In this document: positions 7,526 through 62,515 of the stretch, piece by piece
Numbering within the stretch: the stretch's first letter is position 1
Layout of the letters: the number at the start of each line of letters is the position of its first letter
NCBI RefSeq assembly: GCF_018977255.1
Contig: NW_024704742.1
Coordinates: forward strand, 10,542,001 to 10,606,000
DNA: 64,000 bases
Direction: 5' to 3'
From: Callorhinchus milii
Taxonomy: Eukaryota
Made by a program: the position numbers and the translations under genes
Notes under the pieces: generated by a model
The model's database searches: none
Seen by the model: only the letters and a program-made list of their open reading frames with translations
What the model was told of the DNA's origin: nothing

Positions 7526-7751
7526 GGATGGGTGATTTACATGCAAATTACTTGTGATCATCCTTTGACTTCTATTCATGTGTGAGGGTATTGGCATTTT
7601 AGAAACCAAAAGTATGGTAAGAGCTAGACTGCTGGCACCAAGTACCAAAATGGAACTGGTTCATTCATTACACCCAATGACCTTTCTCTGTTACATTTTT
7701 TATGCTGTTATTGGTTTTAGCCATTTATATATCCGTAACATCGCCCGACTC

Positions 7752-10700
7752 AGTCGGGGAGCGGCGGCAGGACAGCGCGGGGAGGAGCCTGGGCCTACTG
7801 ACCCAGGTACTTAAACTCGACGCCGGAGCGAGTTCAGCTAGGGAGGGGAGGGGTGGGGGCGGAGCGGAGGAACTGCTGACGGCATAGATTAGTTTTCAGG
7901 TGCGTGCGCGCGCAAAAAAAAAAAAAAAAAACCCTCTGCGCCCCCCTCCCCCCCCCCCCAGGGCTCACATCAGAGCCCACTATGGTCCTGTTGGGTTCGC
8001 TGCCCCAATCTACGGGATAATGCCATCCACCTGACCGCTCGCTCCCGGTCCCCGCGTGCGCACTATGGCTGCCGCTTTGACCCGAGCCCCCTCCCCCCCT
8101 CCCTCCCCCCTCCTCTCTCCCCCCAAACCCTCCCCCCTCTGCATCTCTCCCGCTCTCTCCTCCTCTCTCTCCGTCCCTCTCGTCTTCTATCCCCACTTGA
8201 CCCTCCCACAACCTCCCTCTGTTCCAGCCTGGGAATCCTCCGCCGGGCTCACCGTGGCACTCGGCGTTGGCTGTCCAGCAGCAGCCACACCGACTGCCCC
8301 ATTCCCCACCACACTCGCCAGCCACCCCGGACACAGACCCGGGGAGTCAACCTCTCCTCCCTCATCCCCATTCCCCCACCCCTGCCTCACAACCTGGACC
8401 CCCCCCCCCTCCCACACACCCTTCTGTCAACCGCTCCCTCCACATCGGACTGCAAAATGTCCGCTCCCTCTGCAACAAGGCCCTGGTCATCAACGATCTC
8501 ATCCTTGATGAGAACGTTGATATCATGGCCTTAACAGAAACCTGGCTCACCCCAGGCGACACCTTCCCCCTCACGGAGGCCACACCACCCGGCTACACCT
8601 CCCACCACATCCCCCGCCCCAACCGCCGTGGCGGTGGTGTTGCCCTTATCTCAAGGACACCACTTGCCCTATCCCCTACTCCACTGGCTCTTTCCCCTCC
8701 TTTGAGCACCTCACCCTCTCCCACCCCTCATTCCTCTCCCTTAAAATCCTCCTCCTCTACCGGCCCCCTAAAACCTCTCCCACCTTCATCTCTGACATTT
8801 CAACACTCCTCACATCTCTTTGCCTCTGCTCTGATCGCCTCATCATCCTGGGCGACTTTAACCTACACTTCACCCCCTCCTGCTCCATCTCCACAGACTT
8901 CTCTTCCCTGCTCTCCTCACTCAACCTCTCCTTACACATAAACTCCCCCACTCACAGTCACGGCCACCCACTCGATTTGGTGATCACCCGGGGCCTCAGT
9001 GTCTCGGATGTCACTATTACCGACAAGGCCATCTCTGACCACTACTTCATCTCCTTCACCACCTCCACCCCCTCCCCACCTCCACCAGACCCACCACCAT
9101 CTTCTACCGCCCTTGGAAGAAGTTACCCCCACAATCCCTAACCGATGCCTTGGAGTCCTCTGAACTCCTCTCCCTCTGGCCTTCAACCCTCACCGACCCC
9201 TCTTCTCCTCTCTCCCTCCTCCACAATACCCTCTCCTCCACACTCGATACTCTTGCCCCCATCACTTCCCGCACTGTCTCCTACTCCCGCTCCTCCCCCT
9301 GGTACACCACCCACCTCCGCTCACTGAAAAGCCAGGTGCGGGCTGCTGAACGCACCTGTCACATCTGGCCTAACGGTCCACCGACAAATCTGGCTGGACC
9401 TCCTCAAAATTTACCGCTCCACTCTAGCCTCGGCCAAGTCGTCCTTCTACTCCAGGATAATCCTGGAGGCGAAGAACAACCCCAGGCTACTGTTTTCCAC
9501 CACAACCCGACTCCTCCGTCCCCCCCGCCACCCCGCGCAGGTCATCTCCTCCAACCTTCACTGCGAGGAGATGCTGGATTTCCTTGAATCCAAGATCAAG
9601 GGAATCCGCTCCGCGGTCACTTCCCCTCCAACTTCCACCAACCCCCCACCCCTTCCCTCCCACACTCCGACTCCTACCCATCCTCCCCTACACACCTTCG
9701 TACCCGTTTCCCCACCCTCTGTCACTGAACTCATCCTATCCCTAAAACCAACCACCTGCTCCCTTGACCCCATCCCCACTCCACTCCTTATCTCCCAGCT
9801 CCACTTTCTTGCCCCACATATCACTGACATCATCAACCTGTCCCTCTCCTCTGGCTCTGTCCCCATTCCATTAAAAACTGCCATCATCACGCCCACCCTG
9901 AAAAAACCCTCCCTTGATGCGTCGCAGCTATCAAGCTACCGGCCCATCTCCAACCTCCCCTTTCTCTCCAAGGTCTTGGAAAGAGTTGTCGCCTCCCAAC
10001 TGCGCTCTTTCCTTTCCACCCATTCTCTTTTCGAACCCCTTCAGTCAGGTTTCCGTGCTGCCCATAGCACAGAAACTGCCCTGGTCAAGGTCACCAATGA
10101 TATCCTGACCATCTGTGACCAGGGCTCCCTCTGTCTCCTCGTCCTCCTCGACCTATCGGCAGCATTCGATACGGTCGACCACGCTATCCTACTCCACCGC
10201 TTGTCCTCCCACCTCAACCTTCAAGGCACTGTCCTTGAATGGTTTAGGTCGTACCTTTCTCACCGTCTTCACTTTGTCTCAACGAATGGCTTCTCCTCCA
10301 CCCCCCGTACTGTCTCATGTGGTGTCCCTCAGGGCTCTGTCCTCGGTCCCCTCCTCTTCACCCTCTATATGCTCCCCCTTGGTGACATCATCCGCAGACA
10401 TGGAGTTAACTTCCACATGTATGCGGATGACACCCAACTCTACCTTTCCTCCTCTACTCTCAACTCCACGACCACCGATGTCCTGACAGCTGCCTGTCCG
10501 ACATCGAGTCCTGGACGAGAGACAACTTTCTTCAGCTCAACGTGCGAAAAACCGAGGCCCTCCTGATTGGCTCACGTCAGCGCCTCCGCACCTCAGGCGC
10601 TGACACCATCAGCATCCAAGGCTGCACTCTCCACCTCTCAAAGCCAGTCAGGAACCTCGGCGTTTTGTTCGACCCTGAGCTGTCCTTTCTCCCTCACATC

Positions 10701-11386
10701 CGCACCACAACTGGCACCGCCTTCCATCACCTCCGGAACATCGCCAGACTACGGCACTACCTCACCCCTCACGCTGCTGAAACCCTGGTTCACGCCTTTG
10801 TCACCTCAAGGCTGGACTATGGGAACTCTCTCCTCGCCGGCCTTCCCGCCACCTCCCTCCACAAGCTGCAGGTCATTCAGAACTCTGCAGCTCGTGTACT
10901 GTCCCGCACCAGGCTTCGGGACCACATCACTCCCACCCTCGCTCGCCTCCACTGGCTCCCCATCCCCCAGAGGATTGATTTCAAGATCCTCATCCTCACC
11001 TACAAGGCCATTCACGGCCTTGCTCCCTCCTACCTCTCCAACCTACTATCCCCCTACCTACCTGCCCGTACCCTCCGTTCCTCTGGCTCCGGTCTGCTCC
11101 ACGTCCCCCGCCCCAACCGCCCTACCATCGGTGGTCGGGCCTTCAGCCTCTCAGCCCCGAGGCTCTGGAACTCCATCCCCCAGTGCCTTCGCCGCTTCCT
11201 CCCTTTCCTCCTTCAAGGCCGGTCTCAAAACCTTTCTCTTTGACCGAGCCTTCAGCTCCCCTCTCGACTCTCTTCCCCCTCCTCGCTCCCTCCCTTCCCT
11301 CCCCTCACCCTGACCATTTCCCCCCTCCTCGCTCCCTCCCCTCCCCTCACCCTGACCATTTCCCCCCTGCTCGGGTCGTTGTTGTT
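7752..11386 (+). mobile_element. Apparently full-length single-ORF L2 LINE (~3.6 kb) with GACTC TSD
   Basis: GACTC at 7747-7751 and 11387-11391; flanks rejoin into an older L2 (CGTAACATCGCCCGACTC|CGCCACTACCTC); GC-rich 5' end; (GTT)n end. Confidence 0.9.
8065..11313 (+). pseudogene. Frameshifted L2 ORF2: APE endonuclease plus reverse transcriptase (start position uncertain)
   Basis: APE motifs IGLQNVRSL, MALTETWL, RRGGGVA, GDFN, ISDH; RT motifs [34 protein letters not shown]; several frameshifts. Confidence 0.92.
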
Positions 11387-16060: not shown

Positions 16061-16432
16061 TGGAGCCCTGTAGCTCAGTGGTTTGAGCACTCGCCTCACA
16101 AATGAGAGGACCTGGGTTTAATTCCCAGCAGGGCGATATGTTGGGCAAGTTTCCTTACTCCATACGCCTCTGTTTACCTAGCAGTAAGTAGGAACCCGGG
16201 TGTTAGTCGATTGGCGGATCGCTTTTCCGAGGGTAATAATCCCTTCAAAATAAATAAAAATTTGAATAATAATTAGGTCACTCAATCCACGATTGTTTAT
16301 GAGACATTGCTATATGTAATTGGCTGTTGCATTTCGCCCACAAAATATACAGTCACTACACTTTACAGTATATTCTTGGAAACGCTTTGAGATGTCTCCA
16401 AGACGTGATAAGGTGCTATATCAAATGCAAGG

Positions 16433-25809: not shown

Positions 25810-26232
25810 GTAATAATAATAATGCCTATATTTGGTTTAGCGTCTTTCACGTCAGGAGGACGTCCCAAAGCCTTTCACAGGATATACTGTAAAATTCATT
25901 GCCTGTGTTTTGTGAAGGAATGCTGATTTGCACACAGCAATGACCCTCAAATAGCTATGAAATGAAGTACAAATTTTATTTGGGGGATTGTTGGACAGGA
26001 CATTGGGAGAAACTCAATTTTTTCGAGTAGTGCCATGGTGTATTTAACGTCCACCTGAACAGGCAGACGGGTCTCAGTTTAACGTCTCATCTGAAGAACG
26101 TCACCTTAAAACAGTGCAGCACACCCAAGCACTACATTGGAGTGTCAGCTTAGACTTTATTTCTAAGTCCCGATGTGTGGTTTGAACCCACAACCATCTG
26201 ACTTACGAGGCTAAAGAGCTACTAACTGAGCC
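25810..26232 (-). mobile_element. SINE family B, complete
   Basis: Deu-like TTTAACGTCCACCTGAACAGGCAGACGG..TTTAACGTCTCATC; B box TTTGAACCCACA. Confidence 0.82.
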
Positions 26233-26690
26233 GAGCCGTGCTGACACACACCGAGCCAGGCTGACACACACCGAGCCAGGCTGACACACACTGAGCCGGG
26301 CTGACACACACCGAGCCAGGCTGACACACACTGAGCTGGGCTGACACACACTGAGCTGCGCCGACACACACTGAGCTGCGCGGACACACACTGAGCCGGG
26401 CTGACATACACTGAGCTGCGCGGACACACACTGAGCCGGGTTGACACACACCGAGCCAGGCTGACACACCCTGAGCCGGGCTGACACGCACCGAGCCAGG
26501 CTGACACACCCTGAGCCGGGCTGACACACACTGAGCTGCGCCGACACACACTGAGCCAGGCTGACACACACTGCGCTGCACTGACACACACTGAGCCAGG
26601 CTGACACACCCTGAGCCGGGTTGACACTCACCGATCCAGGCTGACACACACTGAGCCGGGTTGACACTCACCAAGCCAGGCTGACACACA
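26227..26690. repeat. 20-bp minisatellite (CTGAGCCAGGCTGACACACA), ~23 units
   Basis: Contiguous period-20 units without spacers. Confidence 0.95.
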
Positions 26691-32779: not shown

Positions 32780-32960
32780 GTTAAAAATGGCCTCCTCTGC
32801 TACACACATCACTTCCGCTACAAACAGGCTACACTCCCCCCCACACCCCTGCTAACGCAGTGTGCTGGGCTCCGCTACACACCTGTACACACAGTGTGCT
32901 ACACCCCGGGCCTGTCGCGCTGTTTGCTCGACGCTGCTACTGTGTGTGGAGTGGCCTCTG
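32780..32960. promoter_or_regulatory. Possible promoter/enhancer patch
   Basis: AAAATGGC (YY1-like) and CACTTCCGC (ETS-like) motifs; locally retained CpGs in unique DNA. Confidence 0.25.
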
Positions 32961-33574
32961 ACACTCTCTTCAGCTTGGCAACCAATATCCTCTTTCTGTC
33001 GGAATAATGGGAGGTTTTCTTGACTTCTACCTCCCCTTTCCTACTTGTCCAGGTGATAACTGGAGCTTCAGTGACAAACATTTTGAGATTAAAAAATCTG
33101 TAAAAATACGTGATATAAATACATATGGTGTATTGTCTTTATGGGGATTTCCTATTAAAGATGCGCATCATGTAATCCCGAAGGAAATTCATTGCTAGAT
33201 TTAGAACTAGCATATTTCAAGCAATGGTACAAGTCCCAGATGGAGCAAATCTATGATTCCCCACTGATTTTGAACTTTGTCTACAAAAGCGTAACATCTC
33301 CAGACTGTGTGCAGACCACTGCAGTGCCCTCCCTCATTGTGTCCAGAGGAGTTGGTACTGGGTAATAGAAGGAGATCCAAAATTGGCTGCTTTTGATCTC
33401 ACCATGGATTGGAGGCAGAGCCGATTGAAGAATTCTTAACATTTTTGAAACTGGGGTTCAAATATCATAATTGTCTTCATTTCTATGCTTCTTTACATAG
33501 TTCTGTGGAACAAAAGGTCTTGTCGATGTGTGAAGCATCTGTTTCTGTACGCCAACCTTTTACAATTAGACTGT

Positions 33575-36296: not shown

Positions 36297-37025
36297 CACA
36301 ACAACAACAACAAGATTCCATTTATAAAGCGCCTTTCACGTCAGGAGGACGTCCCAAGGCGCTGCACAGTTGGGTCATGACCCGAGCAGGGGGGAAATGG
36401 TCAGGGTGAGGGGAGGGAAGGGAGAGAGCGAGGAGGGGGAAATGGTCAGGGTGAGGGGAGGGAAGGGAGGGAGCGAGGAGGGGGAAGAGAGTCGAGAGGG
36501 GAGCTGAAGGCTCGGTCAAAGAGAAAGGTTTTGAGACCGGCCTTGAAGGAGGAAAGGGAGGAAGCAGCGAAGGCACTGGGGGATAGAGTTCCAGAGCCTC
36601 GGGGCTGAGAGGCTGAAGGCCCGACCACCGATGGTAGGGCGATTGGGGCGGGGGACGTGGAGCAGACCGGAGCCAGAGGAACGGAGGGTACGGGCAGGTA
36701 GGTAGGGGGATAGTAGGTTGGAGAGGTAGGAGGGAGCAAGGCCGTGAATGGCCTTGTAGGTGAGGATGGGATCTTGAAATCGATCCTCTGGGGGATGGGG
36801 AGCCAGTGGAGGCGAGCGAGGGTGGGAGTGATGTGGTCCCGAAGCCTGGTGCGGGACAGTACACGAGCTGCAGAGTTCTGAATGACCTGCAGCTTGTGGA
36901 GGGAGGTGGCAGGAAGGCCGGCGAGGAGAGAGTTCCCATAGTCCAGCCTTGAGGTGACAAAGGCGTGAACCAGGTTTCAGCAGCGTGAGGGGTGAGGTAG
37001 TGCCATAGTCTGGCGATGTTCCGGA
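36297..37025 (-). mobile_element. Young 5'-truncated L2
   Basis: Near-identical to 10733-11377 including the 3' UTR duplication; (CAA)n tail. Confidence 0.93.
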
Positions 37026-37074
37026 GAACACTGCTTGCTCTTCCGTTTACAAGCTACAGACTATCCCGGACAGA

Positions 37075-40737: not shown

Positions 40738-42212
40738 TCTTCAACCTCCCCTTTCTCTCCAAGGTCCTGGAAAGAGTTGTCGCCTCCCAACTGCGCTCTT
40801 TCCTTTCCACCCATTCTCTTTTCGAACCCCTTCAGTCAGGTTTCCGTGCTGCCCATAGCACAGAAACTGCCCTGGTCAAGGTCACCAATGATATCCTGAC
40901 CATCTGTGACCAGGGCTCCCTCTGCCTCCTCGTCCTCCTCGACCTATCGGCAGCATTCGATACGGTCGACCACGCTATCCTACTCCACCGCTTGTCCTCC
41001 CACCTCAACCTTCAAGGCACTGTCCTTGAGTGGTTTAGGTCGTACCTTTCTCACCGTCTTCACTTTGTCTCGACGAATGGCTTCTCCTCCACCCCCCGTA
41101 CTGTCTCATGTGGAGTCCCTCAGGGCTCTGTCCTCGGTCCCCTCCTCTTCACCCTCTATATGCTCCCCCTTGGTGACATCATCCGCAGACATGGAGTTAA
41201 CTTCCACATGTATGCGGATGACACCCAACTCTACCTTTCCTCCTCTACTCTCAACTCCACGACCACCGATGTCCTGACAGCCTGTCTGTCCGACATCGAG
41301 TCCTGGACGAGAGACAACTTTCTTCAGCTCAACGTGCGAAAAACCGAGGCCCTCCTGATTGGCTCACGTCAGCGCCTCCGCACCTCAGGCGCCGACACCA
41401 TCAGCATCCAAGGCTGCACTCTCCACCTCTCAAAGCCAGTCAGGAACCTCGGCGTTTTTTTCGACCCTGAGCTGTCCTTTCTCCCTCACATCCGCACCAC
41501 AACTGGCACCGCCTTCCATCACCTCCGGAACATCGCCAGACTACGGCATTACCTCACCCCTCACGCTGCTGAAACCCTGGTTCACGCCTTTGTCACCTCA
41601 AGGCTGGACTATGGGAACTCTCTCCTCGCCGGCCTTCCCGCCACCTCCCTCCACAAGCTGCAGGTCATTCAGAACTCTGCAGCTCGTGTACTGTCCCGCA
41701 CCAGGCTTCGGGACCACATCACTCCCACCCTCGCTCGCCTCCACTGGCTCCCCATCCCCCAGAGGATTGATTTCAAGATCCTCATCCTCACCTACAAGGC
41801 CATTCACGGCCTTGCTCCCTCCTACCTCTCCAACCTACTATCCCCCTACCTACCCGCCCATACCCTCCGCTCCTCCGGCTCCGGTCTGCTCCACGTCCCC
41901 CGCCCCAATCGCCCTACCATTGGTGGTCGGGCCTTCAGCCTCTCAGCCCCGAGGCTCTGGAACTCTATCCCCCAGTGCCTTCGCCTTGCTTCCTCCCTTT
42001 CCTCCTTCAAGGCCGGTCTCAAAACCTTTCTCTTTGACCGAGCCTTCAGCTCCCCTCTCGACTCTCTTCCCCCTTCTCACTCCCTCCCATCCCTCCCCTC
42101 ACCCTGACCATTTCCCCACTGCTCGGGTCATGACCCAACTGTGCAGCGCCTTGGGACGTCCTCCTGACGTGAAAGGCGCTTTATAAATGGAATCTTGTTG
42201 TTGTTGTTGTTG
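40738..42212 (+). mobile_element. Young 5'-truncated L2 with uninterrupted RT frame, nested in an older L2 tail
   Basis: ORF 40707-42107 open to its stop with YADD; older tail flanks it at 40640-40737 and 42213-42350. Confidence 0.95.
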
Positions 42213-43233: not shown

Positions 43234-43381
43234 CTGGGCCTTGGTTCAATGTCTCATCTGAAGGACGGTACCTCCAAAAATGCAGCACGCTTTCAACACT
43301 GTACTGGAATGCCAGCCGAGACGATGTGAGTTTGAAGTCCTAACGTGGGGCTTGAATCCCAAACTTCTGATTCAGAAAAGA
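43234..43381 (+). repeat. 148-bp direct copy of 44292-44439
   Basis: Two mismatches by eye. Confidence 0.95.
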
Positions 43382-44089: not shown

Positions 44090-44465
44090 AATAATCCTTA
44101 ACATTTGTTATAGTGGAATTCATTTTGGGATGACATCTCAAAGCACTTTACAGGTTTTACCATAAAGTAGTGATGTAGTGTGTGTAATTGTGGGCAAACA
44201 CAGCAGCCAATTTTATGAACAGTATTGTTCCACAAACATTTGGCTAGGACATTTTTTGAATATATCTTTAACATCCACCTGAACAGGCAGACTGGGCCTT
44301 GGTTCAATGTCTCATCTGAAGGACGGTACCTCCAAAAATGCAGCACGCTTTCAACACTGTACTGGAATGCCAGCCGAGACGATGTGAGTTCGAAGTCCTA
44401 ACGTGGGGCTTGAATCCCAAACTTCTGACTCAGAAAAGAAAGTGAGCCAGGATGACAGGCTGATG
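44090..44465 (-). mobile_element. SINE family B
   Basis: Deu-like domain and head in reverse. Confidence 0.8.
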
Positions 44466-48890: not shown

Positions 48891-49369
48891 ATAACATGTG
48901 AAGCACATTGAAACTTTGATGTTAGAGATGCTATATCAAATGTAAGAGTTAATATTATTCTACACACACTCACTCCTCCGTGCAGCCTCACTGTGTTAAA
49001 ATAAAGCTGTTCGCATTTGCCTCCTCCTCTGATATATTCTTTCCCAATATCTCCAACATGTAATTTCCTACCTCTTTCAATCTGCTTTTCGTATACAATA
49101 TATTCTACAGTGTTTTAAAATCCAAGCCAAGTGCTCACCTAACCAATATATCTTGAATCACCTGGTTCTCTCCTTTTGTTTTCATCCTTGATGGTGTCCT
49201 GCACTATGACCTTGATTCTTCGTCATGATTTGTCAATAATTCCGCAGCCAGTTGTGAGTTAATTTGGCCTGGTTCAATGTAAGATAGATAGGATATACCA
49301 AGGGGTTTGATACCCAGGGGGTAAATGTTCTTTCTACTCCTCGATTACTGCTTTCAAATGTGATTTGAA

Positions 49370-49905
49370 ATGCCAGTCTCCCATCCACTACCATTCATAA
49401 AATCTAAATCATTCAAAACTCTACCGCCCGCATTCTCACCCACACGAAACTCCGCTTCCCAATCACCCCAGTCCTTGCCAGACAGCACTGGCTGCCTATC
49501 CCAGAGAGGATCGAATTCAAGATCCTCACCCTTGTCTTCAAGTCCCTGAACTCTTCTGCACCCCCCTACCTCTCTGACCTCCTCTCTCCTCAAAACAGTA
49601 CCCATTGCCTTCGTTCCTCCGGGTCTGGCCTCCTCCTCATCCCCTGAGTCCTCCGCTCCACCCTCGGTGGCCGTGCCTTCAGCCACTATGCCCCGAGACT
49701 CTGGAACTGCCTTCCTCACTCCCTTCATCTCGCTCCCTCCCTTCTCATTTTCAGGTCTCTGCTGAAGACCTTTCTTATCGACCGTGCCTTTGGTCACCTT
49801 CCTCCCCCTCCCCCTGGCTCGGTCCCGGGATCCGTTACTGTAAAGCGCTCTGAGACGCTGTCTGGCGTGGAGGGCACTATATAAATCCAAGTTGTTGTTG
49901 TTGAT
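49370..49905 (+). mobile_element. Old L2 3' fragment
   Basis: HWLPIPERIEFKIL, tail, (GTT)n. Confidence 0.82.
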
Positions 49906-49969
49906 CTTCCGAATTCAAAAAGAATAGTCAGTTTTGAAGGAAGATCAATTGAGGGCTGTTTGATTAATA

Positions 49970-50262
49970 CCAGGTGCCACCATCCCAGGCAGCCATGGCA
50001 CACAAGCCAAAGCCTTCCTGTATATGGATGATGTCACCTTCTTTTGCACAGACCAAAAATTGGTCTTGAGCCTGCTAGGCATTTGCAACCGGTTTGAGTA
50101 GGCCTCGAGCGTCAAGGTCAACCGCCAGAAAAGCCAGGTGATTTATTTTGGAGACTGGAAAGAACGCAGTCACATACCATTTGCGGTGAAGCCAGACTAT
50201 ATCAAAGACCTTGGCATCTGGTTCGGGGCTGCCGGGGTGTGCCAAAACAGTTGGGAGGAGTG
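49970..50262 (+). mobile_element. Tx1/L1-clade LINE RT fragment
   Basis: IPGSHGTQAKAFLYMDDVTFFCTD..ICNRFE*ASSVKVNRQKS..FGDW..YIKDLGIWFG..SWEE. Confidence 0.82.
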
Positions 50263-52050
50263 TTTCTGCATACCATTGCTTATTACTAGTTTTTTTTTAC
50301 TAGTTGACTTCTTGCTGTCACATAAATTCTGTTGTTTCACTCACAGACACCTTTTTGGGGAAAGACATGAGTAATGACATAGTATGGTTGTGTACACTCA
50401 TGGTTGCTGCTCTCAGCAAGCTAAGTCTTTTGTTGTGCGGAATTGATTCCAATGGTAAAAATTATCGTCTTGGCATTGTAATAAGTTCAGGAAGACTGTT
50501 TCATAGAGCAAATGACTGATGTGTCCACAGGCAGTGCTAAATTGGTCTTGTGCCCACAAACCTCCATATGGTAAATTCCTAATCATGGATGGACCATCTG
50601 TAGAAATCCTCCCCACAGAGACGCAAGCAAAACCAGAAGAGTCCAACCAGGACATTCTTATGCAATTCATAAAGGCTGTTGTTAGGTGAGCGATGTTTGT
50701 TCTGGAGAATGGAATACTCTGTTTTAGTTTCAGCAACAAGCTTACCACATCAGGTAGTAGCTTTGCCAGGTGAATAAATCTCCCTATTATATTTTGGCCC
50801 CAGATCTCATCTCAATTAGAGCTGTGTTGTTTCTCAAACCAGTGACCTCATTAACATTGTGACCTCATTGCATTTTGACCTCTTTGGTGTGGTGACTGTC
50901 CTGGCATGTTCTTGTGACACAATACGCAGGTAAAAGAGATGGAGACAACAAGATTTGCTTATGAAGATAACAGAACTGTAGAGACTCCACTAATTTGCTA
51001 GTTACTGCTTTGTTTGAATAACTGCGCTCCAAGCCTTGGGTAGCTCCTCCCTGTTGTGCTGTTGTTAGGTGATGGGAGCTCATTAATCTCACTAACTAGG
51101 CTGTCAGTGGGCCCCACACAGATCAGGCTGTGATTTGGCTGCAGCATTTTCCACTTGCTGGATGTTTTTAGGGAAGATGTATACATCTCCTGGAGCATTA
51201 CTGAACCTGTGCCAATCAAAATCATGACCTGATATTAACTCTTTCAATAATTGGCTCTCATATTCATATCTCTGAAAACTAATCATTTCTAGTTATTGGG
51301 GACCTCTTCAAATTCTTTGGTTGTCATGAACAGAGCTCGCTTATATCCAATGTATCATAAACTGGTTTATGGTTCCAAATTATTCTACATCACATTGGTG
51401 CCTTTAGTGAACTGAACACTGGCTGCTTGTTTGGCTATTCTTACTGTTGGAGTTCTGAGGGACGTAATTTCACTGCTGCTTCATTTTCATCAGGTTTATA
51501 AGCAATGCCATCACTCATTATTACAGCGGTATTACAGCCAATGTCTATAACTGCTTCATCACTTTGAAACTGCTCCAGCTTCAAAGTACATGTCAGTGTC
51601 ATCCTTACTGTTTATGTACATTATTTATTGACACTGTGAATTCAGAAGCAACTTTGATGGTTGTTTTAAATCTTGACTTGATGTATCTCCTCCAGTTGAA
51701 CGCTTTTAATATTGAGCCTTTTGCTGAGACTCACCACCTTAGTTATTCCCTCAGTTTTAGTCCGAAAGTAAGGGGTTTCTAAAACAATACGATCCTGCTT
51801 TTTTCAGTGTGGCAGATATTCCTCATATAGGAACTGTAAAGTAGTATTTGTCGCCTGAATTTGTAGATCTTTACTCTTGTAGATAAAGAAGAGTGTATCT
51901 TGTTGACCCACAAGAACTCTGTTGCAGTCTTTGATGTGGTTGCAATGTATTTTTCCTTGAGTTGGAATTTAAAGTAAAGTTTAAACAATCTAAATTGGGA
52001 ATCATATAAATCATAGGTATTCATTGCTCATGCTGGCCCCCTTGCTGCAG
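50263..52050 (-). pseudogene. Degenerate coding-like island of unknown origin (possible endogenous RNA-virus element)
   Basis: Repeat-free, A-rich minus strand, several overlapping 60-110 aa ORFs; only weak motif resemblance. Confidence 0.3.
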
Positions 52051-52257
52051 GTCTCTACTCTACTCTCAATTCTCTGTTCTTGCCCCAAACTCTTTTAAGT
52101 TGACACTCTTCAGAAATGTATCCAATTCACTTTTAAATGTGATCTTAGCTTCAAAAGCCTTTTGTGGTAAACCGTCTATGTTCTAACAATTATAATAATA
52201 ATAATAATAATCCTTGCATTTGATATAGCGCTTTATTGGAAGCATAATCTGTTATAG

Positions 52258-53751
52258 GCATAATCTGTTATTTTCCCAGTTCTCGTATTTTAGACTTCCA
52301 GCTAGATTGAGGCTGTTCTTATGTCCTTTTGATCTATCAGTAAGAGCCTTTCTCATGTGGGGAAAATGGACAATATTCACCCTCCCGCTGCCGTACAGAT
52401 GCTCACACACACTTCCTGAAGTGCTAGGGTTATTATGAACGCATCTTATGAAATCGTCCGCTTACTGTTTGATTGCAGATGAAAGGCAAAGATATTGAGT
52501 TGCATTAAAAGAGGGATCGTGGGCAGCAACAACAACAACAACAACTTGCATCTGTATTGCACCCCTCACGCAGAGTAGCTTCCCAGAGGGCTGGGCAAAT
52601 TAAAAGAGGTTATATGTTTTCTGCAAGATGTTGGTCAGAATCTATTGGGAGTATGGTGCACAGCTCTGGATTTGGTAGGATATAACTGGTCTTGAGAGGT
52701 TACAGGTGTCAGGAGTCAACATTTATAAAGAAAAGTTAAGAAAAAGTAGGAACTTTATGACTGCAATATTAACCCTTAACTCACTACAATAAATACATAA
52801 TTTCAATAAAATATTTTGAAAGCTTTACGAAACCTTCTGTCACATTCTTCTGTCTATCTGCTCTTCCACTTCTGATGATTAAATTCACGCAACCTAAGAA
52901 TTGAAGCCTGTGACTGTCTCTTTTAACACTCAACCTTGGAACTACTCATCTTGAGAGTTTGAATCTTTTTCAATCTTTCAGTCTTTCTCAACTCAGACAC
53001 AAATTCACCCTCAGATGATTAACTTTACAGCGTAATTGCATCAATGATTTGAATTCTGCCATTAATGTATAGCTTTTGCTTGTAATTGTTCAATAAAAAA
53101 AAACTTTAATTGTAAAAATAAATTCGTCACAATGTTATCATGAACATGAGAGTTGTAGTCCATAGCTAATTGGTACCGTCAGCATACGAGAAATCAGTCG
53201 CTGCATTAAATTACATTACTGTGCACAATTGGTTTCACCCACAAAATATTTAGTCAATTCACTTTACAGTATATTCTGTAAAGTGTTTTGAGACGTCACA
53301 AAGACGTGATAAGGCGCGATATCAAATGCAAGGATTACTATTATTATTATTACAGATGTGCTTTGACGATTTTGATCAGGGCTCCCTCTGCCTCCTTGCC
53401 CCCCTCGACTTCTCTTCCTTCAACACTGTTAACCACTCCATCCTCATACACTGCCTCTCTTCTTTACTTAACCTTTGCAGACCTGCCCTTGCCTGGATCA
53501 AATCCTATCTCTCTCACCATCTCCACTTTGTTGCCTCCAACGGTTTCTCCTCCAGCCCCCGCACTGTCACGCCTGGCGTCCCCCAGGGCTCTGTCCTTGG
53601 CCTTCTCCTCTTTACTATATCTACATGCTCCCACTTGGTGACATCATCTGCAGACATGGGGTCAACTTCCATATGTATGCGAATGACACCCAACTCTATC
53701 TTTCTGCCTCCACCCTCAACTCCAGGACCACTGCTGTCCTGACAGACTGTC

Positions 53752-53790
<39 letters not shown>

Positions 53791-54095
53791 CCTTGCATTT
53801 GATATAGCGCTTTTCACGTCGGGAAGACGTCCCAAAGCGCTTCACAGAACGCACTGTAAAGCGAATTCACTGTATATTTGTGGGCGAACGCAGCAGCCAA
53901 TTGCGCACAGCAATGTCCCGCAAACAGTCGTAGATTGAAAATGACCAATTTTATTATTGTTTTGTTTTTTTGGAGGGATTATTATTAGGCTCTGTGTGGA
54001 GTAAGGAAACTTGCCCAAGGTTTCGCTCTGCCTGGAATTGAACTCAGGTCTCTCACTTGCAAAGCGAGTGCTCTAACCACTGAGCTACAGGACTC
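52258..54095 (+). repeat. Left arm of 1.8-kb inverted duplication
   Basis: Reverse complement of 59490-61322 with scattered substitutions. Confidence 0.95.
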
Positions 54096-54985
54096 CACTG
54101 TCGGACATCAAGTCCTGGATGAGGGCAAATTTCCTACAGTTGAATGTGAACAAGACTGAGGCCCTCCTGATTGGCTCGCGCCAGCGCCTCTGCACCTCAG
54201 GTTCTGGCAGCATCAACCTCCATGGTTGCACACTTCAGCTCACCAAGCCAGTCAGGAACCTCGGTGTCTTGTTCGACCCTCAACTGTCTTTCCTTCCCCA
54301 CATGTAGGCCATGACCCGCTCTGCCTTCCCTCACCTCTGTAACATCACCCAACTCCACCACTACCTCACTCCTCAGGCCGCTGAAACTCTTGTTCATGCC
54401 TTCATCACCTCCAGGCTCGACTATGCAAACGCCCTGCTTGTCGGCCTTCCCAACTCCTCCCTCCACAGGCTGCAGATAATCCAGAACTCTGCAGCCCGTG
54501 TCCTCTCCCGCACCAAACTCTGTGACCCCCATCTCCCCCACTCTTGCCCGACTACATTGGCTCCCTATCCTTCAGAGGATCCAGTTCAAGATCCTGGTCC
54601 TCATCTACAATGTCCTCCATGGCCTCGCCCCACCCTATCTCTGCGACCTCCTACTCCCTACCAACCCACCCGCTCCATTCGCTCAGCCGGCTCCGGCTGC
54701 TCCACAACCCCCAACCCACCTACCCCACCATTGGCGGGAGAGCCTTCAACCACTCTGCCCCCAACCTCTGGAATTCCATCCCCCCGGTCACTCCTTATCC
54801 TCCTTCAAGTCCCGCCTCAAGACTCTCCTCTTCGACCATGCCATCGATTACCCCCCTTCCCCTCCCCTCCCTTCTCTCTCCCTGACCCCAGCTCGGGTCT
54901 GAAATGCTGTACACTGTCCAGCGCCTTGGGACGTCTCCCAACTTGAAAGGCACTATACAAATGTAATCTTGTTTTTGTTTTGTTG
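53355..54985 (+). mobile_element. L2 RT fragment with tail, split by a SINE
   Basis: [21 protein letters not shown]; continuous across the SINE. Confidence 0.9.
53753..54097 (-). mobile_element. SINE family A, short subfamily
   Basis: Complete head to (TAA)n tail. Confidence 0.93.
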
Positions 54986-55194
54986 GCAACACCAATAGAA
55001 CAATCCATTTATTCCCTGAGATTGGGGCAACCCAATCCCTTTTATGGACAAATGTAAGTAATGCTGTATTAATAAATGCTGCACAATGATCTTGTTTATG
55101 CATCCACCCTTCTGATGAGCTTTAACTCATCTAAATTAAATGTGGAGAAGCAAGAAGACTGTCTGTCATTGGAAAATATATTGCCTTATTTAAA

Positions 55195-55430
55195 CAAAAC
55201 GCAAAATACTGCAGATGCTGGCAATCTCAAACAAAAATAGAAGTCGCTGGGAACACTCAGCAGGTCAGGCAGCATCTATGGAGGAAGGAAAGTGAGTCAA
55301 CATTACAGGTCCACGACCCTTCGTCAGTTCTGATGAAAGGTCGTGGACCCGAAACGTTGACTCACTTTCCTTTCTCCATAGATGCTGCCTGACCTGCTGA
55401 GTGTTCCCAGCGACTTATGTTTTTGTTTTG
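55195..55430. mobile_element. Palindromic Penelope-type terminal-repeat element
   Basis: ~100-bp inverted arms centred at 55328-55329; same unit as 34230-34835. Confidence 0.75.
55326..55362 (+). ncRNA. Minimal type I hammerhead ribozyme motif
   Basis: CTGATGA 55330, stem II GGTC/GACC, GAAAC 55351, palindromic AACGTT stem III, stem I AGTT/GACT. Confidence 0.7.
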
Positions 55431-55799
55431 CATTATTTAAACCTGATTAATGGTTGGAAAAATTGGATTTGCAAGAAGTCCAATGCTTTCTTTCAAACAT
55501 TATCGTTATGGCCAGTTGTAAATTCTCAGCTTTGTCTCATACCATTGTGATCACTAAGAATTTGACAGTGATTCTCAAACTGATGTAACTTCAGACCTTT
55601 TAACCTTAATGCCAATCTATACTGTTGGAAGTAAAGCTATATTCCCTTCATAAGTCAAATGTTTAGGTGCAGTAATTTGATGTAAATTTCTCATTCCAAA
55701 TTGGAGTCACAGGAATTTTGATCATGTAAATATATGTTGCTTCGATACTGGGTGTGAGTTTTTTAATTTTATGAAATAGCATGTCACTCAGCTACTGAT

Positions 55800-56132
55800 A
55801 ATAATAATAATAATAATAATAATAATGCTTATCATTGCATATGATATAGCGCCTTATCCTGACTTTGAGATGTCTCAAAGTGCTTCACAGAATATACTGT
55901 AAAGTGAATTGACTGTATATTTCATGGGCGAAATAAGGCAGCCAATTGCGCACAGCAGTGTCCCACAAACCTTCTTGGATTGAGTGATCATTTTTTTTTA
56001 AAGGATTATTACCCCGGAAAAATGATCCGCCAATTACCTGACAACTGGGTTCGTACTTACTGCTAAGTAAACAGAGGCGGATGGAGTAAGAAAACTTGTC
56101 CAACGTCTCGCCCTGCCTGGGTAACGAACCTG
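55800..56132 (-). mobile_element. SINE family A (long), 5'-truncated
   Basis: Core and tail in reverse. Confidence 0.85.
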
Positions 56133-56829
56133 ATGCTGAGAAGTTCTAAACTCCTTGACCTGGCCTATGTATTAAACATTTTTAGCTCACACACTGAAAC
56201 AAAATTCTAATATTACAGTAATAAAACTCCAGAAATTTCAGCAGCAGCTTTATTAAAGTAAAATTAACCCCCAAATAAACGCGTTTTCAAATTAAATAAA
56301 CCATTTAAGCACTTCTTTTTCTCATCTGCCTCTGTACTCTCTTCTACTTTTATTCATTTTAATTATACTTGTAAATTTTTTAGTATAGTCCAATGAAATC
56401 TAGTCTTTTTTAATCTAAACGTCAATCTTCCGACCATCCACTTCAGAGGATGGGATCAAGTTCAAATGAATGGTCTTTAGTTGGCGGCTTCAAAGGCTGC
56501 TTTACAGCCACTTCAGGCCCAACAGATCAATCTTTGATGCAATTTCCTTGAGTTAAACATAATCCAACCAATGACCTATTTAATTGAGGACCTGGGCAAT
56601 AAGATAATTCATTGGCTGTGCAATAAAGATTAATAATTCATTTACCTAACTGGAATTGCATTCACACTGATGCCTGGGTCACCACTGCAGTTAAACTCGC
56701 TAAAACCGCATAGCTTGTCATTGAAAGCACTGTCTGGCAAGCTTGCTACTGCTTGTCTATCTAGGATCATCCAACCCGTTAGAGCTTTTGCTTACATGGT
56801 TAATAGGAACTGAGTGGGAGGAACCCCTG

Positions 56830-57097
56830 GTCCCAGTGACGGGGACTTCAGCCTCTCTGCCCCTACCCTCTGGAACTCCATCCCACAGTCCCTCCACCTC
56901 ACAACCTTCCTTTCCTCCTTCAAAACCCTCCTCTTTGATTGCGCCTTTGGTGACCATCCTACCCCTACCTTCCCTGCCCTCCACCCCTCCTGATCCCAAC
57001 CACCAGCTTAGGTCCAAATCTCTGACAGTTCAGCATCTTGAGACATCCTCCTGACATGAAATGTGCTGTACAAATATATTTGTTATTGTTGTTGTTA
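56830..57097 (+). mobile_element. Old L2 tail
   Basis: CTCTGGAACTCCATCCC, tail, (GTT)n. Confidence 0.78.
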
Positions 57098-58153
57098 TCT
57101 GCCTCTCCAAGTTCTGCACTTCAGCATACACCATCTCTAGAAAAACATGCTAAAACTATGCATTAAAATTTTGACTTATCTCCACTTGAAATGTTTCTAG
57201 ATCTAGGAAAATCGCCAATCTGTCCATGAGTTGTGGTAGGGAAAGGAGTCTTGAGTTTTTTTCCACTGAAAGCAGACATTCCACTTTGGCATATTAATCT
57301 GCCTATGACCAACTGAACTCAACCCTACAAAGAGAAACATAATAGGACATGAGGAAAACATGCAGGAGAAGGGGACTGAACAGTTAGCTCAGACTTAGGG
57401 CAGGCCTCTGACAATTTTTTAAAAACAAAATGTATTATTTTTAGCCAGCATCTGACGCATGTGGAAACTCATCACCATGTTTAAGAGTATCCAAGCAAGA
57501 ATGAAAGATCTTTATATATATGTCACCTCGGCATGGAAATTTACCTGCATCTTGAATGAAATGCACATTCTTTCCTTGGAGGGACGCAACCTGCTTACCT
57601 AATTCTGAAGAGTATTTGGCACAGGTTGGCATGAGCCAAGGCTTGGGGACCCAAGAGTCTGGGGTTTTAACTTGCAGTTTAATTTGCTAATAGCGTACAT
57701 TGAAAGTCTTGTCTGGTGAGCTTGCCTCTACTTGTCTAGCTAGGATTACCCTACCCATTCATTAGGGATTTTGCTTGCAGGGTGAACAGTGGAAAGACTC
57801 CTTACTCCCAGTGACTGGTCTGCCTCTCCAAGTACTACTGATCAAGTAGGCTGGCTGGTTTGTCATCAGCAGTGCCCTGGAATACTGCAAACCCACGTGG
57901 CTCAGGAGCCAGGCTACGACACACATGAGGGATTTGATTCTGACATTCCAAACATTGTCAAGTCATATGGTGTATTGGAAATGTCCAGCAGTTAGAGCAA
58001 TCAATTTTTTTTAAAGATGGTTGAAAGAACATTTTCTTCTACACTTCTTCAAAATGGTTGCAATTCTTACACTGTTTGTCATTTGGCAGAAATACGGTGA
58101 GTCAAGACAGTCAAATATATGGCCCCAAAGACAACAGCCAATTTCCTTCATAC

Positions 58154-58280
58154 CTTGAATTGAATTCAAGTCCTTTGAAACCCCAACTTGAATCTCAGAA
58201 GATGATTCATTAAAATCAAAAGTCTTTGTTGAGGTTTGGGCAGACCTCAAATAAAGTTCAACTGGCGATTTTCTCCTGGA
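58154..58280 (-). other. Candidate 127-nt exon (SRRKSPVELYLRSAQTSTKTFDFNESSSEIQVGVSKDLNSIQ)
   Basis: Long pyrimidine tract + CAG acceptor, AAG|GTATGA donor, open frame. Confidence 0.3.
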
Positions 58281-59489
58281 CTGAAAAAAGAGGAAAATCT
58301 GAGAAGAAAATCAAGAGAGAAACAGAGCGATGCTCCTCGACAGTGTGATTGTTTCCTGATCTAAACTCTCAATCTGGTCTGATGACTGCAGGTTTTTGAT
58401 GTAACTAGAATCATAGAAATTTATAGGCACATTTAGGGCTGTGATGAGACCTGGGTTCGATTCCTACTTACCTAGCAGTAAGTAGGAACCCGACTGTTAG
58501 TATATTGATTGATCACTTTTCCAGGAGTAATAAGTTTAGATCAGGAAACAATCACAATGGGGACAGCAGGGACATAGCTTTTGATAATCTCAGTTTTTAT
58601 GTATTTTTATTTATGTATTATTCCCTCTCTTAACACATTTAAAAATGTATACACTTTACAATATATTCTGTGAAGCGCTTTGAGACTTCTCGAAGACCTG
58701 ATGAGGCACTATATCAAATGCAAGGATAATTATTATTTCTGTGCTACATAAATGAAAGTCTGGAAATAGAATACATGGGTGAGTGAGAAAAAGGAGCCTA
58801 CAGACTAAAAGGGTTAATGAAGCTAACAGCAGTATGTGGAATTCTTTCCTCATAATGTTTCTTTTTTTTTGAGTTCTTTATGAAAATCCAAAATCGTGAT
58901 TTTTTTTCACAAACCAAATCTTTTCTCAGCTCTGTCGTGTTGAAGAGAAATCAAACGCAGAACATTGTAGAGTTTGTTTCTTTCATGCGTTATGCTCTAG
59001 GAAGAATTCCGTTACAGTAGCTGTTTTTTGTCCTTGCAATTCAAGCCCTTAATAAAATAGATAGTTATGATTCTCTATTATATCCTTCAATATTCTGTGA
59101 ATGATTTACAGCTTTAGTACTGCAGATTACAATGCTATGACCAAAAGAGAGTCTCCTTTCCAAAAAAAGGCACTGGACAACAAAGAGCATTCAAAACAAA
59201 CAGTAAGAAAGGATGCAATTAATCTGTTTGGTTACAAACATCACTGTATTGCTTCAGAGAAACTGTAAGAAACAAAAACAACTTCAATCCTAACTTGACA
59301 TGCAATATTTCAAAGAAATAATAATTATTGATTGATTATAAAAAAAAGAAATGATAGATATCAATATGACATTATTCAACAAACAAAAAGAAATAAAGAA
59401 TTTTGGGGCACGTTACAAGTGCGGGTCTCTGGTGATGAAAACAATGACAGGTTTAGACAACTGAAACAACCATACCAAAGAGAATTGGT

Positions 59490-59793
59490 AGTCCTGTAGC
59501 TCAGTGGTTAGAGCACTCGCTTTGCAAGCGAGAGACCTGAGTTCAATTCCAGGCAGAGGGCGAAACCTTGGGCAAGTTTCCTTACTCCACACAGAGCCTA
59601 ATAATAATCCCTCCAAAACCAAAAACAATAATAAATTGGTCATTTTCAATCTACGACTGTTTGTGGGACATTGCTGTGCGCAATTGGCTGCCGCGTTCGC
59701 CCACAAATATACAGTCAATTCGCTTTACAGTGCGTTCTGTGAAGCGCTTTGGGACGTCCTCCCGACGTGAAAAGCGCTATATCAAATGCAAGG

Positions 59794-59829
<36 letters not shown>

Positions 59830-61322
59830 GACAGTCTGTCAGGACAGCAGTGGTCCTGGAGTTGAGGGTGGAGGCAGAAAGATAGAGTTGGGTGTCATTC
59901 GCATACATATGGAAGTTGACCCCATGTCTGCAGATGATGTCACCAAGTGGGAGCACGTAGATATAGTAAAGAGGAGAAGGCCAAGGACAGAGCCCTGGGG
60001 GACGCCAGGCGTGACAGTGCGGGGGCTGGAGGAGAAACCGTTGGAGGCAACAAAGTGGAGATGGTGAGAGAGATAGGATTTGATCCAGGCAAGGGCAGGT
60101 CTGCAAAGGTTAAGTAAAGAAGAGAGGCAGTGTATGAGGATGGAGTGGTCAACAGTGTTGAAGGAAGAGAAGTCGAGGAGGGCAAGGAGGCAGAGGAGCC
60201 CTGATCAAAATCGTCAAAGCACATCTGTAATAATAATAATAGTAATCCTTGCATTTGATATAGCGCCTTATCACGTCTTTGTGACGTCTCAAAACACTTT
60301 ACAGAATATACTGTAAAGTGAATTGACTAAATATTTTGTGGGTGAAACCAATTGTGCACAGTAATGTAATTTAATGCAGCGACTGATTTCTCGTATGCTG
60401 ACGGTACCAATTAGCTATGGACTACAACTCTCATGTTCATGATAACATTGTGACGAATTTATTTTTACAATTAAAGTTTTTTTTTATTGAACAATTACAA
60501 GCAAAAGCTATACATTAATGGCAGAATTCAAATCATTGATGCAATTACCCTGTAAAGTTAATCATCTGAGGGTGAATTTGTGTCTGAGTTGAGAAAGACT
60601 GAAAGATTGAAAAAGATTCAAACTCGCAAGATGAGTAGTTCCAAGGTTGAGTGTTAAAAGAGACAGTCACAGGCTTCAATTCTTAGGTTGCGTGAATTTA
60701 ATCATCAGAAGTGGAAGAGCAGATAGACAGAAGAATGTGACAGAAGGTTTCGTAAAGCTTTCAAAATATTTTATTGAAATTATGTATTTATTGTAGTGAG
60801 TTAAGGGTTAATATTGCAGTCATAAAGTTCCTACTTTTTCTTAACTTTTCTTTATAAATGTTGACTCCTGACACCTGTAACCTCTCAAGACCAGTTATAT
60901 CCTACCAAATCCAGAGCTGTGCACCATACTCCCAATAGATTCTGACCAACATCTTGCAGAAAAAATATAACCTCTTTTAATTTGCCCAGCCCTCTGGGAA
61001 GCTACTCTGCGTGAGGGGTGCAATACAGATGCAAGTTGTTGTTGTTGTTGTTGCTGCCCACGATCCCTCTTTTAATGCAACTCAATATCTTTGCCTTTCA
61101 TCTGCAATCAAACAGTAAGCGGACGATTTCATAAGATGCGTTCATAATAACCCTAGCACTTTAAGAAGTGTGTGTGAGCATCTGTACGGCAGCGGGAGGG
61201 TGAATATTGTCCATTTTCCCCACATGAGAAAGGCTCTTACTGATAGATCAAAAGGACATAAGAACAGCCTCAATCTAGCTGGAAGTCTAAAATACGAGAA
61301 CTGGGAAAATAACAGATTATGC
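59490..61322 (-). repeat. Right arm of inverted duplication (contains SINE 59490-59828 and L2 piece 59829-60225)
   Basis: Shares private SINE variants CAATCTACGAC and AATTCGCTTT with the 53753 copy. Confidence 0.95.
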
Positions 61323-62298
61323 AGTGTTACTTTATTGGAAGCAACCAAGGTTTCAGCGGAAATTAATTTTGTTTCTGAACAACTGAGGACCGATTTTGTA
61401 AGTGTCGCAAACTGAATAACAGAGGCTTAAAGCAAAGTCCACGTATCTGTGAAATCGTTGAACTGAGCCCAGTTGTAAATCAAATCAAAGAGTCAGTAGC
61501 CATGAGCAAGGGGTCCCTTTGATTAAATTATATTGTTGACCAGCTCAGGTTGTAGCCTGATGCATGCCATTAGATTTGTCCATTGTTGGCTGCAGAACAT
61601 GGCTGCTGCTCGTAGTTAAATAAAGATAGGTTTTCAGGGTTAACAGGAGCTGAGTGGGATGACTCCCTGCCCTCAGAGACTGATCTCTACCAATGAGCCA
61701 GGTTGTCTGCGTTGTTATCAGCAGTGCCCTGGAATACCGCAGACCCACCTGGCTCAGGAACTGGACATCCAAGACTGTTTCAGAGGGCTGGCTCGATTCT
61801 GACATTCCATTGCCAGGTATATCACCTTGGAACTAGTCAACAGCACTGAAGGATGATGTTTGCAACAAGGTCTAGGTCCGGGTGCCTCCTGAGGATGTCC
61901 ACAATCAGATCTCTCACTTTTAATCCAGTAGCAGACATGAGCCCACTAAGGAGCCAAGCCACTACATGCTGGTATTTCCACATTGGAAGTATAGCTGCAC
62001 TCTTGACCCACCCAATATAGTTACAAGGTTAGCCCCAGTCATACTCTATCAGGTCCAGCGAGCTTGCCGCGATTCCTCTCCCAACCCCCAAGGTGGGTGG
62101 AGGGGGAGGGGGACCATCCAGAGGGTGCCAGGCTACTGAGAGTGCACCACTGACTCATGGTGAATCAGCGGCCCTTTGCCCCTTGTTGGTCGCAGTTGGG
62201 TCTTGCAGTGAGCAGTGCATGCAGCATTGGATGACATGCCACTTCAGCCCCATACCTATAGGTACTGCATCTGTAAGCATGGAGTCCGTCCTGCACTA

Positions 62299-62515
62299 AT
62301 AATAATAATAATGATAATAATCCTTGCATTTGATATAGCGCTTTTCACGTCGGGAGGACGTCCCAAAGCGCTTCACAGAACACACTGTAAAGTGAATTGA
62401 CTGTATATTTGTGGGCGAACGCGGCAGCCAATTGCGCACAGCAATGTCCCACAAACAGTCGTAGATTGAAAATGACCAATTTATTATTGTTTTTGGTTTT
62501 GGAGGGATTATTATC
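62299..62515 (-). mobile_element. SINE family A short subfamily, 3' half
   Basis: Near-consensus tail and body. Confidence 0.9.

What the first reader, a model, noticed from the sequence alone, without database searches (positions are those of the whole stretch)
52231..61343. Inverted 1.8-kb duplication whose junctions imply a template-switch inversion of the 5.4 kb between the arms
Structure is W-X-Y-rc(X)-Z. The X/Y boundary (54097) is ancestral because the L2 runs through it. The rc(X)/Z boundary (61322) also looks ancestral, because the W/X junction was templated from it. The two new junctions are therefore at opposite ends (52.2 kb and 59490). The simplest history is W..rc(Y)-rc(X)-Z, with Y (54098-59489) inverted and X duplicated (FoSTeS/MMBIR or staggered break). 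The arms could also permit recurrent flipping of Y.
Basis: partly seen in the sequence, partly recalled or inferred. Interest (0 to 1): 0.7.

Follow-up and report, generated by a model that had tools for sequence, protein, structure and literature searches.

The report
SINE-guided inversion with flanking duplication
A 5.4-kb piece of non-coding vertebrate DNA was most likely flipped, and 1.5 kb beside it copied, when broken DNA was repaired using two oppositely oriented copies of a small jumping element; this is a known kind of rearrangement and no affected gene was found.

Summary
The inverted duplication is real: 52258-54094 against 59490-61322, 98.7% identical. Each arm's inner 340 bp is a young tRNA-Ala SINE, and the two copies differ about four times more than the rest of the arms (8/310 against 10/1495, p=0.006). 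59489/59490 therefore looks like the old insertion site of a second SINE (S0). Its tail is now at the end of W, with a matching 5-bp target duplication. The real switch is hidden inside a hybrid SINE. Contigs of 2 of 2 laid runs of the near-identical organism carry X with one left context, including 52230-52257, and not joined to W. The 'templated' letters thus look like native flank: W/X is a 5-bp microhomology join, and the altered edge is arm 2/Z. Best model: two lesions, inversion, and one end repaired by SINE-to-SINE homology that re-copied 1.5 kb. This is a dupINV/INVdup-type variant, probably polymorphic. It works like DUP-TRP/INV-DUP but has no triplication. No host gene was detected, and reads spanning both arms were not seen.

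The parts
52187..52191 (-). 3' copy of the putative target-site duplication of SINE S0 (AATTG on the SINE strand)
   Evidence: Same 5 letters precede the SINE head at 59483-59487; chance 0.006-0.015 with 1-2 letters of slack
52192..52234 (-). Orphan 43-nt SINE tail at the end of W, read as the 3' end of S0
   Evidence: Identical to the young SINE from the position equivalent to 59771. The W contig of X1 ends at 52211, the last base of the (TAA)n tract (record 5)
52230..52234 (+). Junction 1: 5-bp microhomology (GCTTT) between the SINE tail and the native flank of X
   Evidence: The SINE match ends at 52234; the X contigs of X1 and X4 begin to match at 52230
52230..52257 (+). 28 letters of apparently native flank of X, including a 16-nt tandem unit; not a new templated insert
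   Evidence: X4 record 28 lies on 52230-53260 with 5 other letters and no gap, and has 375 further letters before it
52258..53751 (+). X', the unique part of arm 1 (old repeat fragments, with the 5' part of an L2 fragment from 53364)
   Evidence: 10 differences from arm 2 in 1495 bp
53752..54096 (-). SINE S1, complete, tRNA-Ala head and L2-like tail, inserted into the L2
   Evidence: ARAGORN and Rfam tRNA hits; 6-bp duplication at 53746-53751 and 54097-54102; L2 paralogues are uninterrupted
54097..59487 (.). Y, the single-copy spacer inferred to be inverted; begins with the 3' part of the L2 (to 54985); repeats and unique non-coding DNA
   Evidence: no Pfam family at its cut-off in the ORFs scanned
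59488..59828 (+). Hybrid SINE: head and body of S0 followed by the tail and 3' flank of S1; junction 2 lies in about 59717-59828
   Evidence: 7 of 8 differences from S1 fall in 59529-59716; 98.4% to the copy at 7206-7525, against 95.5% for S1; it lacks S1's 5' target duplication but has its 3' flank
59829..61322 (-). Second copy of X' (arm 2, unique part)
   Evidence: X1 and X4 read the arm 2 letter at 52418, 52954 and 53031
61323..61343 (+). Junction 3: altered edge between arm 2 and Z. One tandem unit is missing, followed by 7 unassigned letters and a 14-nt inverted copy of the native flank
   Evidence: Edge comparison set against the form in X1 and X4; that this is the derived state is inferred

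Best explanation
The ancestral allele is inferred as W - S0 (minus) - rc(Y) - S1 (plus) - rc(X') - Z, with two young SINE copies in inverted orientation 5.4 kb apart. DNA was broken, or a fork collapsed, at two places: inside S0, about 40 nt from its tail, and at the X'/Z edge 7.3 kb away. The W end was joined to the far end of X' by 5 bp of microhomology, which inverts the middle piece. The free S0 end paired with S1 by homology, primed synthesis through the S1 tail and all of X', and was then joined to Z with a small inverted insert and loss of one tandem unit. The result is W-X'-rc(S1)-Y-(S0/S1)-rc(X')-Z: a one-sided inversion-with-duplication made by one homology-guided switch and microhomology-type joins. 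It is a repair scar with no function, probably not fixed in the species. Shown: arms, split L2, SINE at both inner ends, uneven divergence, and X' with a non-W context in two samples. Inferred: identity of S0's two halves, the inversion of Y, the order of steps, which arm was newly made, and the enzymes.
For: SINE parts differ at 8 of 310 sites against 10 of 1495 in the unique parts (Fisher p=0.006; 0.04 if two CpG changes are dropped). The inner edge of arm 2 falls on the SINE 5' end. The W tail starts at SINE position 59771, 12 letters after the last S0/S1 difference (59759), so body and tail tile one element. A 5-bp duplication links the W end and the Y end (chance 0.006-0.015). The L2 is collinear across S1 with a 6-bp duplication. 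In X1 and X4 the X' contig runs unbroken through 52258 and 52234 and is not one of the contigs covering W at 52099 (depth sums: X1 19.7 = 8.24 + 11.5, not 14.3; X4 13.5 - 12.4 = 1.1, below the floor of 2). X' depth in X1 is 14.3 against 8.2-15 for single-copy pieces (the tool warns that depth is no copy number).
Against: The 375 letters before 52230 in X4 record 28 were not shown and Z was not in the laid stretch, so X'-Z adjacency in other samples is not seen. No contig was shown joining W to the end of Y. Three other full SINE copies in the window (at 0.3, 7.2 and 24.8 kb) show no clear target duplication on inspection. Arm 2 holds the family-majority state at all 8 SINE differences, which gene conversion of one copy could also give. 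Both arms share one SINE letter (53862/59722) seen in 1 of 29 paralogue alignments, so the difference at 53825 must postdate the event. The arms differ by 0.67% whereas W and Y differ from X1 and X4 by about 0.19% (11 of 5937; P=0.0006), which this model does not explain. X' depth in X4 (12.4) is above its single-copy pieces (7.3-10.9). Graph cleaning could hide a heterozygous junction.
Confidence: 0.7

Rival explanations
1. One reading: W ends in a 40-nt SINE stub that adjoined rc(Y). One SINE (S1) was duplicated with X, and new junctions lie at 52.2 kb (with templated inserts) and at 59490.
For: It also explains the 5-bp duplication. The head in arm 2 differs from the family head at its second letter, as a junction might. 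One SINE letter is shared only by the two arms.
Against: It needs a switch landing within 3 letters of a SINE 5' end, and a fourfold excess of change in the SINE (p=0.006). The supposed inserts are attached to X in X1 and X4 without W.
Confidence: 0.08
2. Assembly artefact: a heterozygous simple inversion (or two haplotypes) mis-joined through the near-identical SINE tails, so that X appears twice.
For: X1 and X4 show one context for X'. Arm 2 matches X1 and X4 at three sites where arm 1 is private. The switch lies in a high-copy repeat. No read spanning both arms was seen.
Against: Arm 2/Z differs from the X1/X4 form exactly where arm 1 ends, so the second haplotype would need a separate private change at the same 30 bp. 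9 of 10 arm differences are substitutions and exceed the allele level. The window has no N.
Confidence: 0.08
3. Two steps: a break in S0 was repaired by copying the S1 tail and X' onto W without inverting Y, and Y flipped later by recombination between the new arms.
For: It gives the same end product. 1.8-kb arms at 98.7% are plausible substrates for exchange (established knowledge). Changes fall on both arms (6 on arm 1, 3 on arm 2, 1 unknown).
Against: It leaves the template copy untouched, so it does not explain the altered arm 2/Z edge.
Confidence: 0.07
4. Y was never inverted. The ancestor was W..U-X'-rc(S1)-Y-S0-Z. Arm 2 is an ectopic copy added behind S0, and W/X is a separate microhomology deletion of U and of another SINE's body.
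For: The L2 is contiguous from X into Y in the present orientation. Junction 3 looks like the end of a copying tract. The identity of the 375 letters is unseen.
Against: It treats as coincidences the 5-bp duplication, the tiling of tail and body, and two independent breakpoints within 28 bp.
Confidence: 0.05

Closest known systems
CNV-flanked inversions, dupINV / INVdup (Collins et al. 2017, PMC5338099; passages seen)
   Same: An inversion with a duplication on one flank, listed there as a resolved subclass of complex structural variant.
   Different: Here the event is small (5.4 kb inverted, 1.5 kb duplicated), in a non-human genome, and has a third, altered edge. The passages seen give class names only, no mechanism.
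DUP-TRP/INV-DUP (PMC11293582; Introduction and passages seen)
   Same: One junction inside a pair of inverted repeats forming a chimeric repeat, and a second junction with short microhomology (1-9 bp in 14 of 24 cases there). Inverted Alu pairs are reported as substrates.
   Different: No triplicated segment: Y is single copy and only one flank is duplicated. The repeats are 340-bp SINEs, far below the >10 kb named there for recurrence.
Transposable-element-mediated inversions (PMC9675761; abstract and passages seen)
   Same: Inverted SINE copies at the ends of a kb-scale inversion. 4 of 7 Alu inversions there had extra deletions or insertions at the breakpoints.
   Different: Only one of the junctions here is SINE-to-SINE. 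The other joins a SINE tail to unique DNA, and the extra sequence is a 1.5-kb duplication, not 14-23 bp.
Inversion-associated inverted duplications by staggered breaks in Drosophila (Ranz et al. 2007, PMC1885836; abstract seen)
   Same: An inverted duplication of non-repetitive DNA marks the inversion breakpoints.
   Different: That model is set against ectopic exchange between repeats. Here one junction is a hybrid repeat.

Membership tests
dupINV / INVdup | One flank present twice, in inverted orientation, around a single-copy segment | tested here: met
dupINV / INVdup | Middle segment inverted relative to the ancestral allele | tested here: inconclusive
   Supported by the split L2, the 5-bp duplication and tail/body tiling; no W-to-Y-end or X'-to-Z contig was shown
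dupINV / INVdup | An allele without the duplication exists | tested here: inconclusive
   X' has one left context in 2 of 2 runs of organism A laid; the contig data are simplified and noisy
DUP-TRP/INV-DUP | Junction 1 inside inverted repeats, making a chimeric repeat | tested here: met
   Hybrid SINE at 59488-59828; statistical, p=0.006
DUP-TRP/INV-DUP | Junction 2 with short microhomology or templated insertion | tested here: met
   5 bp at 52230-52234
DUP-TRP/INV-DUP | Inverted triplicated segment between two duplications | tested here: not met
   No unique segment occurs three times; Y has no second copy in the window
Simple SINE-SINE inversion | Both breakpoints are reciprocal chimeras of the two elements, with no copy gain | tested here: not met
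   S1 is complete with both target duplications; 1.5 kb gained
Staggered-break inversion | Breakpoints free of inverted repeats | tested here: not met
   SINEs lie at both inner ends and at the W end
DNA transposon with long terminal inverted repeats | Target duplication outside the arms and a transposase between them | tested here: not met
   The outer flanks share no direct duplication at the arm ends; no Pfam family at cut-off in 66 ORFs of X and Y
Recurrently flipping inversion | Both orientations of Y found among carriers of the two arms | not testable with these tools
   Needs long reads or orientation-specific PCR from several carriers

The most novel reading that the evidence does not exclude
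This is a newly born, still segregating flip switch. A break in one very young SINE was healed by folding back onto an inverted sister SINE on the same fragment. That turned a 340-bp, 97% repeat pair into 1.8-kb, 98.7% arms that now toggle Y repeatedly. The excess divergence of the arms over Y would record mutagenic synthesis or exchange with other haplotypes. If common, this would be a route by which active SINEs seed recurrent-inversion hotspots in a repeat-rich vertebrate genome.
Probability: 0.15. Interest if true: 0.45.

Novelty: new member of a known kind. Interest (0 to 1): 0.25.

Why it matters
Modestly. It is a base-resolved example, outside mammals and flies as far as its repeats suggest, of a complex inversion in which a homology-guided switch and microhomology joins act together. 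An unrearranged allele is apparently still present, so the steps can be checked by sequencing. It also shows how an apparent breakpoint at a repeat's edge can be an old insertion site. No gene effect was found, so the biological consequence is probably nil.

Tried and rejected
No whole genome is held for this window, so other copies of X and the wider gene context could not be searched. Host gene: 246 stop-to-stop ORF scans against Pfam in three calls (87, 93 and 66; some ORFs were scanned twice, and 14 of the 185 listed, all in 7.5-9.7 kb, were not sent). Only an L2 endonuclease passed the cut-offs. A DHR-2 lobe B hit (E=0.0085) and a DUF6776 hit (E=0.047) were below cut-off, and the first had no PDB match. 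Short exons could be missed. Relatives: runs X12 (organism B) and X13 (organism C) gave mostly repeat noise at 80% likeness, and no informative joint was among the 15 shown of about 25,000. No RNA holder listed. SINE 3' transduction was rejected: arm 2 has no tail or target duplication at its far end, and S1's 5' duplication is missing. A rearrangement coupled to the S0 insertion itself (prompted by the abstract of PMC11702581) is disfavoured, because the tail is in place at W in X1 although X' is not joined to it. My own first reading of the W/X edge as a templated insertion was dropped. Earlier scan notes: none near; one unrelated plasmid case by words, not used.
Full report
Observation. A self-comparison of the window finds the arms 52258-54094 and 59490-61322 in inverted orientation: 1839 columns, 98.7% identical, the longest non-self match. 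About half of the window is repeated sequence with CpG depletion. It reads as non-coding vertebrate DNA. That the repeats resemble those of cartilaginous fish is my recall and was not tested. A tRNA-derived SINE sharing its 3' end with a LINE is described for one such fish (PMC1845163, passages seen). An L2-type fragment runs from 53364 to 54985, collinear with the copy at 40897-42212, and is interrupted by a SINE with a 6-bp target duplication.

The inner ends are SINEs. The inner 340 bp of each arm is a SINE with a tRNA-Ala-like head and a tail about 55 nt of which resembles the L2 3' ends in the window. The arms differ at 10 sites in the 1495 unique bases but at 8 sites in about 310 SINE bases, leaving out the (TAA)n length and the head letter. 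Fisher p is 0.006, or 0.04 without two CpG changes. Seven of the eight fall in 59529-59716. The arm 2 SINE is 98.4% identical to the copy at 7206-7525 and the arm 1 SINE only 95.5%. The arm 1 copy (S1) has both halves of its target duplication; the arm 2 copy has S1's 3' flank but another 5' flank. The simplest reading is two insertions, with arm 2 holding a hybrid.

W ends in 43 letters of the same SINE's tail. They start at the position equivalent to 59771, 12 letters after the last difference between the copies. The five letters after that tail equal the five letters before the arm 2 head (chance 0.006-0.015). So the tail in W and the body in arm 2 are probably the two halves of one element, S0. 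This places W next to the far end of Y in the ancestor and makes 59489/59490 an old insertion site. Against this: other full copies in the window show no clear target duplication, arm 2 has the majority state at all eight differences, and one letter is shared only by the two arms.

Outside evidence. Four runs of organism A (one study) hold 0.70-0.74 of the sampled words of 50000-59489. I laid two of them (X1, X4) and one run each of organisms B and C on 49000-59489. All are contigs, and the output was crowded by repeats and cut. W and Y pieces differ from the window at 11 of 5937 letters, so A is the same or a very close organism. One of these samples could be the source of the window; both differ from it at several sites. 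X4 record 28 lies on 52230-53260 with 5 other letters and no gap, and has 375 more letters before 52230. The X1 contig starts at the same place. These contigs are not among those covering W at 52099 (depth sums; words seen once are discarded and all 31-mers are distinct in these files, Logan methods passages). The W contig of X1 ends at 52211, the last base of the tail's (TAA)n tract. The SINE match ends at 52234 and the contig match begins at 52230, which leaves a 5-bp microhomology. The edge that departs from the X1/X4 form is arm 2/Z: one 16-nt tandem unit is missing, then come 7 unassigned letters and a 14-nt inverted copy (61330-61343). Limits: the 375 letters were not displayed. If they are Z, the contig would end near 61720, inside a repeat piece at 61700-61759, which fits but proves nothing. 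Graph cleaning could also hide a heterozygous junction. B and C gave nothing usable.

Mechanism. The inferred ancestor is W - S0 - rc(Y) - S1 - rc(X') - Z, with the SINEs inverted to each other. Two lesions, in S0 near its tail and at the X'/Z edge, account for all three junctions. W joined the far end of X' by microhomology. The S0 end paired with S1 and primed copying of the S1 tail and X'. The copy was joined to Z untidily. A series of template switches at a collapsed fork would give the same product. Break-induced replication and polymerase-theta-type joining are the natural candidates from established knowledge; neither is shown. I give this 0.7. One result stays unexplained: the arms differ by 0.67% while Y differs from X1 and X4 by about 0.2% (P=0.0006 for 10 or more), with 6 changes on arm 1, 3 on arm 2 and 1 unassigned. 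The polarity of three of these rests on only two distant paralogues, and of one on the absence of a row in a cut table.

Comparison. The structure fits the one-sided CNV-flanked inversions (dupINV/INVdup; PMC5338099, passages). It works like DUP-TRP/INV-DUP, where one junction is a chimeric inverted repeat and the other has short microhomology (PMC11293582, Introduction and passages), but it has no triplication and is not a member. SINE-mediated inversions with untidy breakpoints are common in humans (PMC9675761, abstract and passages). Inverted duplications at inversion breakpoints are well known in flies, where they are ascribed to staggered breaks (PMC1885836, abstract). I read no supplements. 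My searches were for the class of event and for methods, not for this locus, so I make no claim about whether the locus is in print.

Verdict. A real-looking, probably polymorphic repair scar of a known class, in DNA with no detected host gene. Interest 0.25.

Noticed in passing
window 7530-11380, 36379-37026, 40738-42125: A long L2-type element with a frameshifted endonuclease domain (PF03372 E=3e-9, PF14529) and two partial copies 98% identical to it: a young LINE subfamily that could be the SINE's partner.
   Followed up: partly
window 62297-62514 (-): A 5'-truncated SINE copy 98.6% identical to the arm 2 SINE, inverted to it and 2.5 kb downstream: a further substrate for exchange.
   Followed up: partly
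window 55229-55428: A 200-bp palindromic element with 99-nt arms, 92% complementary; DNA fold -103.6 kcal/mol. MITE-like and high-copy in all four runs laid.
   Followed up: partly
window 32902-33138 (-): Weak Pfam hit to DHR-2 lobe B (E=0.0085, below cut-off), no PDB match. It has a possible splice acceptor and donor by eye and may be a short exon or chance.
   Followed up: partly
window 26231-26690: A tandem array seen as overlapping self-matches at offsets of 120-280 bp; period not determined.
   Followed up: no
window 43234-43381 and 44292-44439: A 148-bp direct repeat at 98.6% identity, 1058 bp apart.
   Followed up: no
window 6352-6423, 16064-16136: tRNA-Val-like heads; the one at 16064 starts a 400-bp repeat with many copies in the window, suggesting a second SINE family.
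   Followed up: no
window 50490-50738: Gap-free match to a contig of run X13 (23 other letters in 249) with no Pfam hit. By recall its translation resembles an old LINE endonuclease fragment rather than an exon.
   Followed up: partly
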